Source: Myxococcota bacterium (lineage in GTDB: Bacteria > Myxococcota_A > UBA9042 > PHBI01 > JAWLBL01). From it: a stretch of DNA of 64,000 bases. Made by a program: the position numbers. Every line of letters begins with the position of its first letter. Positions within the stretch are counted from its first letter, which is position 1. The stretch is from the NCBI GenBank assembly GCA_041687695.1, contig JAWLBL010000004.1:1-64000 (forward strand). Direction: 5' to 3'. Of the stretch, positions 9,001 to 15,000 are shown piece by piece.

Positions 9001-12000
9001 GAGGAGCTGCTGTTCGAGGGGTTCCCGCCCCAGCAGGGGGACCCGCTCGAGCGCCTCGGCGCCTTCTTCATGCAACGCGTCGGCCTGGTGCGCCGCCTCC
9101 CGGGGGTCATGCGGCTGCTGCTCTCGGACGAGCTCTCGCGCGCCGGGACGGAGGCGGCGGCGGCCCGCGTGCTGGAGCTCAAGCGGCGATCCATGGGCTT
9201 CGTCGTGCAGTGCTTCGCGGAGGCGCGCCAGCGAGGCCTCGTCCGGAGTGACCTGGACCCGCGGGCCCTGGCGCTCCTGGTGAACGGCGCGGCCCTGGCG
9301 CTGCTGCAGGTCCCGGCCCAGCTCGCCGGGGCGATCTCGCCCGAGGACGTGTGGGCCTCGCTGGAGCGACTGGTCCGCACGTAGCGGGCGCGAGCGCGGG
9401 GCGGACCCGTCGAGAGGAGGTCGGAGGATGTGGGTAGCTCTCTTTTTTGGCGCGAAGAAGCGAGCAAATACTTGCTTGCTTATCGGCACGGTGCTGGTCG
9501 GTGCCCTCGGCGCCCCGGCCTGCGACGCGGGTCACGCGGCGAGCCCGCCCGCTGCCGCCGCGCCCCTCGCCGTGCGGGTGACGCCGGCCCGCAGCAAGGC
9601 CCTGCGCGAGGTCGCGCGGTACATCGGGTCGGTCCGCGCCGCGCGGGAGATCGACCTGGTGGCGCGGCTCCCCGGTACGCTCACCGCGCTGCCGATCCCC
9701 GAGGGTGGACGGGCCGCCGCGGGGGAGCCTCTGGCGATCATCGCCACCCCGGACCTCGAGGCTCGGCAGGCGCGCCTGCGGGCCGAGCTCCGGCGCGCCA
9801 GCAGCGACCGGGCCTACCTCTGCGGCGTCGCCCGGACCGACCGCGAGCTGGTCGACGCAGGCGCCCTCGAGGGGGCGCGCCGCGACGCCAGCGTGCGGGC
9901 GTGCCGCAGCAGCGAGGCGGCGGTCGAGGCGAGCCGCGCGGCCATCGCCGAGCTCGAAGCCACCCTGGAAAAGCGCGTCGATCCGGCCCCGTTCGACGGC
10001 CGGGTGCTCGACCGGCTCGCCGAGCCCGGCGCCAACGTCGCCCCGGGCCGGCCGCTGCTTCGCTTCGGCTCCGACGCGCTCGAGATCGAGGTGCGGGTCA
10101 CCGAGAGTGACGTGCGGCGTGGCGTCGACGAGGGCACCGCGGCCCTCGTACAGCTCGACGGCGCGACCTGGCGCACCCGCGTCCTGACCGTCGCACCCAG
10201 CGCCCTCGGCCCGGGGCGCACGTTGGAGGTGCGGGTCGCGCTCCCACCCGAGGCGGTCGACCGCGTGCGCCACGGGATGTCGGTCGAGGTGGCGTTCGTG
10301 CTCCGCGAGGCGCCCGAGGACGTCGCGGTGCCGCTCGAGGCCGTCCGGCAGGACGCGGCCGGTCACCATGTGTTCGTCGTCCGGGACGCCGTGGTGCACG
10401 CCGTCGCCATCACGCCGGGCGCCTCGTCCGATGGCTGGGTGTCGACCGGCGGCGCGCTGCCGTCCGGCGCCGACGTGGTCGTCGGCGAGCTCGGGCTGCT
10501 CGAGGATGGCCTCACCGTGTACCCGGTCGCGGTGTCACCGCGGACCGCCGGGGGGCTCCAATGAGCTTCACGCGCGCCACGCTGCGCCACCGGCACGCCG
10601 TCTGGGCGCTCGCCCTCGCGGCGGCCATCTTCGGCGCGATCAGCTACCTGCGCCTGCCGATGCAGCTCTTCCCCGACACGTCACCGCCGCTCGTCAGCGT
10701 CATGACCGCCTGGCCCGGCGCCTCCGCGGCCGACGTGGCGAGCGGGCTCGTGCGGCCGCTCGAGGAGGAGCTCGGGGCGCTCGAAGGCGTCTCCCGCATC
10801 CGCTCGACGGCGCAGGACAACCTGGCGGTCGTCACGCTGGAGCTGCGCTACGACATGGACGCCGACCTGGCGGCGGTCGACGTCCAGAACGCCGTCGCGC
10901 GCATCCGCGGCGCGCTGCCGGCGGGCGCCCGCGAGCCGCGCGTGCTGAAGCTCGACACCTCGGATCGGCCGGTCCTCACCCTCGCGGTCCGCGCCAAGGC
11001 TCTGACCCACGCGCGCTCCGCCGCCGAAGACATCGTCGCGCCCACGCTCCAGCAGCTGCCCGGGGTCGCCGGGGTGGACGTCTTCGGCGGGGCGGTCGAG
11101 GCCGTCCTGGTCGAGCTCGATCCGCGCCGCCTCGAGGCCTGGCGTCTTCCGCTCGCGCGGGTGGTCGAGGCGCTCCAAACCCAGAACACGGCGGCCCCGG
11201 CCGGACAGCTGCGGACCGAGCGCACGCGCACCGCCTTGCGCGTCGAGGCCCGCGCCGTCCGCCCCGAGGCCCTGGCGCGCATCCCGGTCCCGCTCCCGGA
11301 CGGCTCGCGCGTGCTCATCGGAGACCTGGGCGTCGTGCGCCGCGGCGCCCTCGACGACGACGCGCGCTTCGCCGTCGGGGGCGAGCGGGCCATCGCGGTC
11401 CAGGTCTTCAAGGCGACCGAGGCCAACGCCGTCGAGGTGGTCGAGCGCGCGCTGGTGGCGGCCGAGGCCCTCAGCCGCGCGCACCCGACGCTGAGCATCG
11501 AGATCGGCGAGGAGAGCGCGAGCTTCACCCGGCAGTCCATCGGCACGCTGCTCGACAACGTCTGGCAGGCGCTCGCGTTCGCGGCGGCGGTCATCTTCCT
11601 CTTCGTGGGCCGGATCCGGGCCTCCCTGGTCGCGGTCGTCTCCATGCCCCTCAGCTACGGGCTCACCTTCGCGCTCATGAAGCTGACCGGGACCCAGCTC
11701 GACATGGTCACCCTGACCGCCGTCATCCTGGCGGTCGGGATGGTGGTCGACGCCTCGGTGGTCGTGCTCGAGAACATCGAGCGGCGACGCGACGCCGACG
11801 GCCTCGCGCCCGAGGAGGCGGCCGCCCGCGGCGCCGACGAGGTGCGCCTGCCGGTCCTGGCCGGCGCCGCGACCACCATGGCGGTGCTCGTCCCGCTGAT
11901 GTTCCTCGGCGGCTTCGTCGGCAAGACCTTCGGGCCGCTCGCCCGCACCCTGCTCTTCGCGTTCGTCAGCTCGGTGGCGGTCGCCCTGGTGCTCGTGCCC

Positions 12001-15000
12001 GTCCTCAGCCTGTACACGGCCGGTCCGAGCCGCCTCGACGCCCTCGGGGCCCTCGTCGCGCGCCCCTTCCAGTGGCTCATGACCGGGCTCCGCGCCGTCT
12101 ACCTGGCCACCCTCCGCGGCGCCCTGCGCGCCCGGCTGCTGACCGTCGGGCTCGCCGTCGGGTCGCTGGTGCTCGGCGCCCAGCTCATCCGCGCCCAGGG
12201 CATGGAGGTGCTCCCGCAGATGGACGGCGGCAGCTTCTTCGTCTCGCTCGAGACCGCGTCGGGCAGCGCGCTCGAGGAGACCGAGCGCGTGGTCCGCGAC
12301 GTCGAGGCCCTCCTGCTGGCCGAGCCGGAGGTCGTGCTGGTCCAGTCGCAGGTCGGCTTCGAGCAGGGGATGCGGTCGATGTCCGCGGCCGGCGCCCAGG
12401 GGCCGACCCAGGCCTTCGTCTCGGTCACCTTGACGCCGCGCACCCAGCGCGCCGACTCGATCTGGCACATCCAGGCGCGCGTCCGAGCGGCGCTCGCGCG
12501 GGTCCCCGGCCTCCGCTCCTCCACCGTCCGCGAGCTGGGCAACACGGCGAAGTCCACCACCGCGGCCCCCATCGTCGTGAGGCTCTCGGGCCCCGATCCC
12601 CTGGTGCTCGACCGGCTGGGCGACGAGGTCATCGACCGCCTCGCCACCGTGCCCGGCGTGGTCCAACCCGTCAGGAGCTGGCGCCGCGACCAGCGGCAGG
12701 TCCAGGTCCGTCTGGACACCCACCGCGCCGGCCAGCTCGGGATGACGCCGGCCGCCATCGCCCAGCTGATGCAGTCGGGGGCGACCGGGGTCCCATCGGG
12801 CACCCTCGAGCGCGAGGGCGCCGCGCCCGTCCCCATCCTGACCCGCTACGCGCGCGGCGACGCGCACACCCCGCGCGACGTGCTCGACCAGCCGATCGTC
12901 ACGCCAGGCTCGCCCGATCCCATCCCGCTCCGCGCCGTCGCCCGCGTCGAGGAGACGGTCGGCCCCGCGCTCGTCACCCGCGAAGATCACGCCACGACCC
13001 TGGACCTCTCGGCCTTCGCGACGGGCCGCGCCCTCAGCTTCGTCCTGGCCGACGTCGAGCGCGATCTGGCGGCGCTCACCTTGCCGCGCGGTTACGCGCT
13101 GACGCTCGCCGGCGAGAACCGCGACCTCGACGAAGCCCGCGGCGAGCTGGGAGGCGCGCTCGTGATGTCCCTGCTCGCGGTCTACCTGCTCCTGGTGGCC
13201 CAGATGGGCTCCTTCCTCCACCCGCTGACCATCCTGACGAGCGTGCCGCTGAGCCTGTCCGGCGTGGGCGCCGCCCTCTGGCTCGCCGGCAAGCCGGTCT
13301 CGATGCCGGTCATGGTCGGGCTCGTGCTGCTGGTCGGCACGGTCGTCAACAGCGCCATCATCCTGGTCGACTTCGTCAACCGCGCCGTCGCCGACGGCGT
13401 CCCGCGCCGAGAGGCCCTCGTCGCCTCGGTCCGGACGCGCTTTCGCCCCATCATGATGACCTCCCTGTCGACCGTCGTCGGGATGATCCCGCTGGCCGCC
13501 GAGTGGGCGCTCGGGGCCGAGCGCTTCTCGCCGCTCGCCACGGCGGTCATCGGCGGGATGGTGGCCGCCACGCTGCTGACGCTCGTCGTCATCCCGGTGC
13601 TCTACGATCTCCTGGACGACCTCGTCCGCCTCTTCCGTCGGCTGGGACGCCGGCTCGGTCGCAACGCCGGGGCGGCCGCGGCGGTCGTGCTCCTCGCCGC
13701 CACGCCCGGCCCGGCACGCGGCGCCGAGCCGGTCGCCCTCGACCTGGCGGCGGCGCTCGCGCGGGCCCGGGACGCCAGCCAGCGGCTCCAGGCCGGCGAG
13801 GACGCCGTCGCGGCGGCGCGGCACCGCACCGACGCCGCCGAGCGCCGCCGTCTGCCGCGCTTCGACCTGCAGGCCCGGTACAGCCACCTCAGCGAAGAGG
13901 AGCCAGGCGAGCTGAGGCTCCCCAACATGCCGGCCGGGGTGCGCTTCGGCGAGGCGATCACGGACTCGGCCTCCCTCCGGGTGACCGTGTCGCAGCCGGT
14001 CTTCACCGGCTTCGCGCTCGCGCGGGCCGAGGAGGCCGCCGAGCTCGGCGTCACGCTCGCGCGCCTGCACCTGGAGGTCGCGCGAGCCGACCTGGACCTG
14101 CGGGTCACCGAGACCTACCTCGGCCTCTTGCGGGCGCAGGCGCGCAGGGCCGTGGCGGCGCAGTCCGTGGCCCTGGTGCGAGCCCTCCGCCAGGATCTCG
14201 AGCGCCTGGTCGCCGCCGGCCGCGCCAACCCCCACGAGCTCGCCCGGGTCGACGCGCGTCTCGCCGAGGCGCGCCTCGGCGTCCTCGAGGCGGAAGTCGC
14301 CGCAGACGCGGCGCGCCTGACCCTCAACCACCTGACGGGGTTGCCGCCGGAGACGGAGCTCCATCTCAGCGAGGATCTCGCGACGCCGCACGATCCGAGG
14401 CCCGCCGGCGACCTCCACGCTCGCGCCGCCGAAGGCCGGCCCGATGTTCGCGTCGCCTCCGCGGCCGCCGAGCTGGCCGTCGTCCGCGCCGAGTCCGCGA
14501 CCGCCGCCCGCTGGCCGCAGGTCCACCTGCAAGCCGGCTACTCGTTTGGGAACCCGGGGGATCGGACCTTCCCGCCCCGCCAGGAGTGGGGCGACGCGTG
14601 GGACGTCTCGGTGGTCCTGGGGTGGACCGCCTTCGACTTCGGGGCGCGCGATGCGGAGATCGCCGCGGTCGAGGCAGAGGCGACGGCCGCGCGGCGCACC
14701 CGCGACGAGCTGAGCCGGCTCACCCGCCTCGAGGTCGACCGCGCCCTCAACGCCCTCGAGGCGGCCGACGCCCGAATCGCCGCGGCCCGCGCCTCGGTCA
14801 CCCTGGCCGACCGCGCCCTGACCCAGGCCCGCGAGCTCCACGGCCATGGGCGCCTGGTCGCGACCGAGCTCCTCGACCGCGAGGTCGCGCTCGCGCGCGC
14901 CCGGGTGGCCGAGATCGACGCGCGGGTCGGGGCGCGGCTCGCTCAGGCCCACCTCCGCCGCCTGACCGGCGGCCACCACCCCTCCGCTCACCTTCCATGA

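What a model noticed while it worked through the whole genome (the two positions that open the first line are those of the whole stretch)
10561..15000. RND efflux pump and outer-membrane factor made as one polypeptide with an internal signal peptide
g00921 (1479 aa) is one open frame. It joins a complete RND inner-membrane pump (ACR_tran, residues 5-1018) to a complete TolC-type outer-membrane factor (two OEP repeats, 1062-1470). The 40-residue linker has the three parts of a Sec signal peptide (RRLGRRLGR, AAAAVVLLAA, PARG/AEP). The adaptor gene g00920 stands just upstream. Boldest reading: the pump's two trimeric ends are translated as a polyprotein. The linker would act as a 13th membrane pass that threads the OMF half into the periplasm and is then cut by signal peptidase I, which fixes a 1:1 pump:channel ratio. 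New would be an internal, cleavable signal peptide in a bacterial membrane polyprotein and a natural fused RND-OMF family. [...]
Evidence so far: Pfam rows and the junction sequence are in call 53. A search with residues 960-1479 found 45 further clusters of 1083-1552 aa with both PF00873 and PF02321, at 34-51% identity and 76-100% cover of the query part. They come from 'Deltaproteobacteria'/Myxococcota, Alphaproteobacteria and metagenomes. Six more (one named Acidimicrobiia) match at 27-29%. In an alignment of 16 fused proteins, all 16 keep a basic stretch, a hydrophobic stretch of about 10-18 residues and, in most, a small-x-small motif (ALA-G, AVA-K, AFA-G, AEA-L, AWA-Q, ANA-Q and others) just before the first OEP repeat.
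(Added by a program. Inside this text positions count along the whole contig: contig position 1 is position 1 of the stretch shown here. "Call 12" and the like, gene names such as g00115 and contig names such as C1 are that model's own, and its searches are not shown. The text may have been shortened before it was handed on; [...] marks where a part breaks off. The agent that wrote the report below was given it as the finding of a first reader that could run no searches.)

Follow-up and report, generated by a model that had tools for sequence, protein, structure and literature searches.

The report
Efflux pump and exit channel polyprotein
One gene encodes both the inner-membrane motor and the outer-membrane exit channel of an efflux pump, joined by a conserved export-signal-like stretch that likely lets the cell cut the chain into two proteins for two different membranes, a layout that recurs in many bacteria.

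Summary
Confirmed. Window 10561-15000 is one 1479-aa frame: a whole RND pump (5-1018) followed by a whole TolC-fold channel (about 1060-1470). It is not an error: 85 other clusters among the best 120 hits carry both domains. The linker looks like a signal peptide under selection. In 70 aligned relatives the -1, -3 and -6 columns are Ala 66, Ala 57 and Pro 59; this protein reads P-G-P-A-R-G/A. No start codon or ribosome site precedes its hydrophobic core, whereas 8 of 8 adjacent split relatives have both. A separate metal-pump clade ends the linker in a lipobox in 36 of 38 proteins. Best reading: a precursor cut by signal peptidase I (0.8); cleavage is not shown. The '1:1 ratio' purpose is unsupported. 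This scan has reported the same layout before on other DNA (37 notes). Ten paper searches found no description; precedents (FbcH, a B. fragilis fusion) are recalled only. New variant of a known kind, interest 0.6.

The parts
8782..9384 (+). TetR-family regulator, likely the operon's repressor
   Evidence: Pfam TetR_N; homologue in 17 of 21 other fused loci of the clade
9428..10564 (+). Periplasmic adaptor (MFP); start codon uncertain; its stop overlaps the RND start (ATGA)
   Evidence: TIGR01730 125 bits, over cut-off; homologue in 20 of 21 other fused loci
10561..13605 (+). RND inner-membrane pump, residues 1-1015, to the end of the last membrane helix
   Evidence: PF00873 5-1018; PDB hits to MdtB, MexB, AcrB over about 14-1022; 12 hydrophobic 19-residue peaks, one of them (166-184) probably periplasmic
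13606..13662 (+). Basic cytoplasmic tail (1016-1034), like the tail of unfused relatives; would serve as the n-region of the internal signal
   Evidence: unfused tails are mostly 14-25 aa and of the same kind; at least one K/R before the h-region in 86 of 86 fused proteins
13663..13701 (+). Hydrophobic h-region (1035-1047)
   Evidence: 8-residue Kyte-Doolittle mean 2.9; 19-residue mean only 1.1 against 2.47 for TM12
13702..13722 (+). c-region with predicted signal peptidase I site, Pro(-6), Ala(-3), Gly(-1), cut predicted after residue 1054
   Evidence: alignment A2 columns: P 59, A 57, A 66 of 70 rows; coil with low pLDDT in the model
13723..15000 (+). TolC-type outer-membrane factor (1055-1479), complete fold, no lipobox
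   Evidence: TIGR01844 1059-1470 (below curated cut-off); AF2 pLDDT mostly over 90; Foldseek TolC 7ng8 E 2.4e-17, target TM-score 0.84; [GAS]C after the h-region in 0 of 86 clade proteins

Best explanation
The gene encodes an RND pump and a TolC-type channel in one reading frame, and the stretch between them is predicted to work as an internal Sec signal peptide that signal peptidase I likely cuts, which would free the channel for the outer membrane. Shown: one frame, two complete domains, conserved signal-peptide features, no internal start in this gene, two signal peptidase I genes in the genome. Inferred steps: the pump inserts with its C-terminus in the cytoplasm; its basic tail acts as the n-region; the h-region threads the channel half into the periplasm; the cut falls after Gly1054; the channel then trimerises through the ordinary chaperone and BAM route; the pump keeps a 39-residue tail; the separately made adaptor bridges both as in AcrAB-TolC. 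The substrate is unknown, probably hydrophobic compounds under TetR control (inference). Such fusions probably arise when the stop, ribosome site and start between adjacent rnd and omf genes are lost in frame, and are tolerated because the signal still works.
For: (1) Sequence signature: -1 Ala 66/70, -3 Ala 57/70, -6 Pro 59/70, above the mean majority-residue share of the channel domain (0.49) while n- and h-columns sit at 0.31-0.34; motif 73/86 against 40 +/- 4 in shuffles. (2) No separate start: the only start-type codon in 13606-13740 in any frame is a GTG inside the h-region, with no SD-like word and no stop in any frame. Of 22 distinct fused clade loci with DNA, 10 have no ATG/GTG/TTG before the h-region, 1 has an ATG (no SD) and 2 have a 4-base SD-like match; 8 of 8 clade loci with a separate OMF gene within 400 bases downstream have SD plus ATG plus their own signal. 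(3) Signal type follows the passenger: a CzcA-type clade defined on the RND tree has a lipobox pattern in 36 of 38 long-tailed members (the other two show G-C by eye), against 1 of 57 in the Bacteroidota-labelled clade and 0 of 86 here. A lipobox cysteine is useful only if processed (established knowledge). (4) Geometry: only about 12 residues separate the h-region from the channel fold (about 4 nm extended, my arithmetic), while MexAB-OprM has 7 nm of pump plus a 6 nm gap below the channel tip and 23 nm between membranes (PMC4754349, passages). (5) Signal peptidase I present twice.
Against: No proteomic, biochemical or expression evidence of cleavage. Hydrophobicity does not exclude an uncleaved anchor across the family: 71 of 86 linkers reach a 19-residue mean of 1.6 or more, although 84 of 86 are below their own TM12. 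This protein has Gly rather than the family's Ala at -1. Aligners tend to stack alanines, which inflates column counts. Relatives are not independent samples. In the Bacteroidota-labelled clade 34 of 57 linkers keep a Met before the h-region, and L030/L031 have GGAGG plus ATG, so internal starts may operate in some lineages. No signal-peptide predictor was available.
Confidence: 0.8

Rival explanations
1. The precursor is split, but by another protease or at another site (for example an intramembrane protease).
For: Cleavage is needed on geometric grounds but the enzyme is not shown; this protein has Gly at -1.
Against: The conserved Pro(-6)/Ala(-3)/Ala(-1) pattern is that of signal peptidase I, and the lipobox version points to Lgt/LspA.
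Confidence: 0.07
2. The channel is translated separately from an internal start inside the same frame.
For: Met before the h-region in 13 of 86 clade proteins and 34 of 57 in the Bacteroidota-labelled clade; L030 and L031 have GGAGG plus ATG.
Against: In this gene the only candidate is a GTG at 13687 inside the h-region with no SD-like word; 10 of 22 fused clade loci have no start codon before the h-region. Ribosomes reading the pump would still run into the channel half.
Confidence: 0.05
3. The chain stays whole: the linker is a permanent 13th membrane helix and the channel half works tethered, in a non-canonical geometry.
For: 71 of 86 linkers are hydrophobic enough over 19 residues to span a membrane; AF2 draws TM12, tail and most of the h-region as one helix.
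Against: The tether is far too short for the known assembly; in this protein the 19-residue hydropathy is 1.1; it does not explain conserved peptidase motifs or lipoboxes.
Confidence: 0.05
4. Lost stop codon or assembly error; the channel half is a non-functional passenger.
For: No reads were available for this contig to check the junction directly.
Against: 85 other fused clusters from independent assemblies; no remnant stop or start in any frame; channel half complete and well folded.
Confidence: 0.03

Closest known systems
Tripartite RND efflux pumps AcrAB-TolC (E. coli) and MexAB-OprM (P. aeruginosa)
   Same: Same three parts (adaptor, RND pump, OMF) and a TetR regulator; both folds match solved structures.
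   Different: Pump and channel are one gene. None of the best 60 listed PDB sequence matches (of 85) exceeds 1069 aa. The pump is below the cut-offs of all named NCBIfam RND subfamilies and has Asn where HAE1 pumps have the Lys of the K-N-A-I motif.
CzcA/CusA-type RND-OMF fusions of Bacteroidota and Planctomycetota (database entries; one B. fragilis Bme fusion recalled from Ueda et al. 2005, not seen)
   Same: Same architecture with an internal signal, of peptidase I type or lipobox type.
   Different: Different RND family (TIGR00914 over cut-off) and different OMF branches, so independent origins. The recalled B. fragilis note could not be retrieved.
Bradyrhizobium japonicum FbcH (cytochrome b + c1 precursor with an internal cleaved signal; recalled, paper not held)
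   Same: Works like it: a polytopic inner-membrane protein followed by an internal signal that exports and releases a second subunit.
   Different: There both products stay at the inner membrane; here the second product is an outer-membrane beta-barrel channel. No sequence relation tested; the precedent was not verified.

Membership tests
RND superfamily permease | Full-length ACR_tran domain with two periplasmic loops and about 12 membrane helices | tested here: met
   PF00873 positions 3-1020 of 1021; hydropathy peaks
RND superfamily permease | Proton-relay residues in TM4/TM10/TM11 (positions recalled from AcrB) | tested here: inconclusive
   Asp397, Arg960, Thr967 present; second Asp is Ala and the Lys is Asn; RxRPxxMT in 86 of 86
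HAE1 (AcrB/MexB-type) subfamily | Score over curated cut-off of TIGR00915 / NF000282 | tested here: not met
   402.8 against 940.35 and 440 against 1250 bits
HME (CzcA/CusA) subfamily | Score over curated cut-off of TIGR00914 | tested here: not met
   369.2 against 701.45 bits
Outer membrane factor (TolC family) | Two OEP repeats and the TolC alpha/beta-barrel protomer fold | tested here: met
   PF02321 x2 over cut-off; model matches TolC, OprN, CusC
Lipoprotein OMF (OprM/NodT type) | Lipobox cysteine at the mature N-terminus | tested here: not met
   No Cys in the linker; 0 of 86 clade proteins
Sec/signal peptidase I substrate | Basic n-region, hydrophobic h-region, small residues at -3 and -1 after a helix breaker | tested here: met
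Sec/signal peptidase I substrate | Actual cleavage by signal peptidase I | not testable with these tools
   No proteomics or experiment available
Tripartite efflux system | Adaptor, pump and OMF encoded together | tested here: met
Tripartite efflux system | Transport of a substrate across both membranes | not testable with these tools
   No assay; substrate unknown

The most novel reading that the evidence does not exclude
Bacteria have repeatedly and adaptively evolved true membrane polyproteins in which a 12-helix inner-membrane pump launches an outer-membrane channel, or another exported passenger, through an internal signal processed by signal peptidase I or by the lipoprotein pathway. This couples synthesis of two trimers one to one, arose independently in several RND families, and is undescribed.
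Probability: 0.35. Interest if true: 0.8.

Novelty: new variant of a known kind. Interest (0 to 1): 0.6.

Why it matters
If cleavage holds, signal peptidases and the lipoprotein pathway act more than 1000 residues into a chain to send its two halves to different membranes. That widens the rules of bacterial protein sorting and gives a simple test system. It also matters for annotation: these genes carry the name of one half only (one search shows both 'RND permease' and 'TolC family protein'), so pumps that seem to lack a channel are complete. The efflux machine itself is ordinary.

Tried and rejected
Sequencing runs: none was listed for 9400-15000, so the junction and expression were not checked with reads. 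Plasmid tblastn: 1068 records matched, none covering 80% of the junction query. Paper searches found no description of natural RND-OMF fusions; term look-ups in PMC8277102 (only the first 300,000 of 747,818 characters held), PMC4446572, PMC12164818, PMC6316836, PMC10434189, PMC3881775 and PMC12724326 showed none in the passages returned. Ueda 2005 and the FbcH paper are not held. Subscription journals are largely outside the library, so absence is weak. Promoter scan: 0 sigma-70 sites, uninformative at 75% GC. Hydropathy length does not separate a signal peptide from an anchor across the family. Repeated fusion within this clade is not established: the RND tree rejects one fused clade but the OMF tree keeps this clade's fused OMFs together with one split form nested, which also fits one fusion followed by splits and losses. 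The '1:1 ratio' purpose was considered and left unsupported. No complex prediction was sent, since textbook pairs pass by likeness.
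Full report
Observation. The window holds an open frame at 10561-15000 (+) of 1479 aa. 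Pfam gives ACR_tran at 5-1018 and two OEP stretches; the NCBIfam TolC model matches 1059-1470 from its second position. Upstream lie an adaptor gene whose stop overlaps the start (ATGA) and a TetR gene. An AlphaFold2 model of residues 861-1479 (70-row alignment, mean pLDDT 91.6) is confident in both domains and low only in the linker (58-61) and the last residues. Its channel half matches TolC (7ng8, E 2.4e-17, target TM-score 0.84). The named relatives are Myxococcota or 'Deltaproteobacteria'.

Not an artefact. A search with residues 900-1479 gave 398 hits; of the best 120 listed, 86 carry both domains (the query and 85 others) and 34 are RND only. In 60 related genomes I fetched 20 regions from 18 genomes chosen from the listed matches; 15 regions in 14 genomes are fused. 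That is a selected sample, not a frequency. No reads were listed for the window.

The linker. After the last pump helix come a basic tail, a hydrophobic core and TPGPARG/AEP. All 86 fused linkers have an 8-residue hydropathy window of 2.0 or more; 0 of 26 scorable unfused tails do (8 too short). A small-x-small site followed by Q/E/A/D/G occurs in 73 of 86, against 40 +/- 4 in shuffles of the same residues. In alignment A2 the -1, -3 and -6 columns hold Ala in 66, Ala in 57 and Pro in 59 of 70 rows, while the n- and h-columns average 0.34 and 0.31 and the channel domain 0.49. This is the signal peptidase I pattern (established knowledge). This protein has Gly at -1. Against: 71 of 86 linkers are hydrophobic enough over 19 residues to be anchors; this one is not (1.1).

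Internal start. In 13606-13740 the only start or stop triplet in any frame is a GTG inside the h-region, and no SD-like word lies upstream. One search found 35 distinct fused loci, 22 of them in this clade (profile score over 1400). Ten of the 22 have no start codon before the h-region, one has an ATG without SD, and two have a 4-base SD-like match before GTG or TTG. All 8 clade loci with a separate OMF gene within 400 bases downstream show stop, SD, ATG and their own signal peptide. The fused form is therefore the pump's tail joined to the h- and c-regions of the channel's signal, without ribosome site or start.

Other families. Using a 680-aa part of a CzcA-type pump of this genome and asking for long proteins gave 120 rows; one was dropped for lacking TM12. 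On a tree of their RND halves, one clade (39 rows, Planctomycetota where named) has 38 long tails, 36 with a lipobox pattern after the h-region and the other two with G-C by eye. A second clade (59 rows, Bacteroidales and Ignavibacteria where named) has 57 long tails, 1 with that pattern and most with an Ala-Gln type site; 34 of these 57 keep a Met before the h-region. Most but not all long tails carry the OEP label. A few pumps carry other passengers behind the same kind of signal: HupE/UreJ_2 (P0124, P0127) and cytochrome c (P0172, P0183). That the signal type follows the passenger is the strongest indirect evidence for processing.

Geometry. About 12 residues separate the h-region from the channel fold, at most about 4 nm. 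In reconstituted MexAB-OprM the membranes are 23 nm apart, with 7 nm of pump and a 6 nm adaptor-only gap below the channel (PMC4754349, passages). An uncut tether cannot adopt that assembly. The genome has two signal peptidase I genes.

History. On a 100-row RND tree the fused state changes at least 14 times, 4 times within 45 rows of this clade (tree). An AU test on 22 of these rows rejects one fused clade (p 3.6e-37; quick tree, run after I had seen the larger tree). The OMF tree separates this clade's channels from those of the other fused groups, but keeps this clade's fused channels together with one split form nested (long branches flagged). So independent origins between RND families are well supported, while inside this clade repeated fusion and one fusion with later splits both fit. 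Split relatives with the same TetR and adaptor show that fusion is optional, which weakens the claim that it exists to fix a 1:1 ratio.

What is known. Ten searches returned no paper on natural RND-OMF fusions. I saw search listings and term passages only: PMC8277102 (first 300,000 characters held), PMC4446572, PMC12164818, PMC6316836, PMC10434189, PMC3881775, PMC12724326, PMC4754349; no whole texts and no supplements. I recall, without having seen them here, a note of one fused Bme pump in B. fragilis (Ueda 2005) and the cleaved FbcH precursor of B. japonicum; neither paper is held. JGI's automatic names already record the fusion. This scan has 37 earlier notes matching the same words (8 shown) and one more; one is marked 'part of it fell' without detail. 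These notes are not independent evidence; the first led me to test the CzcA-type families myself.

Verdict. Real, conserved and widespread. Most likely a precursor cut by signal peptidase I (0.8). The pump is an RND permease outside the named HAE1 and HME subfamilies, and the channel is a non-lipoprotein TolC-type factor. New variant of a known kind; interest 0.6, held back by the lack of any direct evidence of cleavage and by probable precedents.

Noticed in passing
L035 (G047:C2:44000-56000), RND frame 4854-8060: An unfused RND pump whose tail ends in a hydrophobic, signal-like stretch with a small-x-small end and then a stop, followed by an OMF gene with its own SD, ATG and signal; it resembles the predicted cleavage product or a re-split fusion.
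   Followed up: no
L030 and L031, fused RND-OMF frames: In-frame GGAGG plus ATG 11 codons after TM12: possible dual use, precursor plus internal start.
   Followed up: partly
P0124, P0127, P0172, P0183, P0237: CzcA-type pumps fused through a signal-like linker to non-OMF passengers (HupE/UreJ_2, cytochrome c, unknown); most keep a Met before the h-region; DNA not checked.
   Followed up: partly
window 15009-15431 (+): 140-aa membrane protein with no Pfam or NCBIfam match right after the fusion; homologues near 3 other fused loci; unnamed Atlas clusters at 0.96.
   Followed up: partly
window 6497-8521 (-): Cytochrome cd1 nitrite-reductase-like gene with two cytochrome c domains and a His-rich N-terminus, divergent from the TetR gene.
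   Followed up: no
L051, P0086, P0100, P0119: Unfused pumps whose tails look like truncated fusion linkers (basic stretch then Ala-rich end), hinting at secondary loss of the channel half.
   Followed up: no
G000 contigs C1, C7, C18, C21, C22, C24, C25, C30, C41, C46 (L055-L064): The genome's ten other full RND pumps are unfused; at C24 the OMF gene follows directly in another frame.
   Followed up: yes
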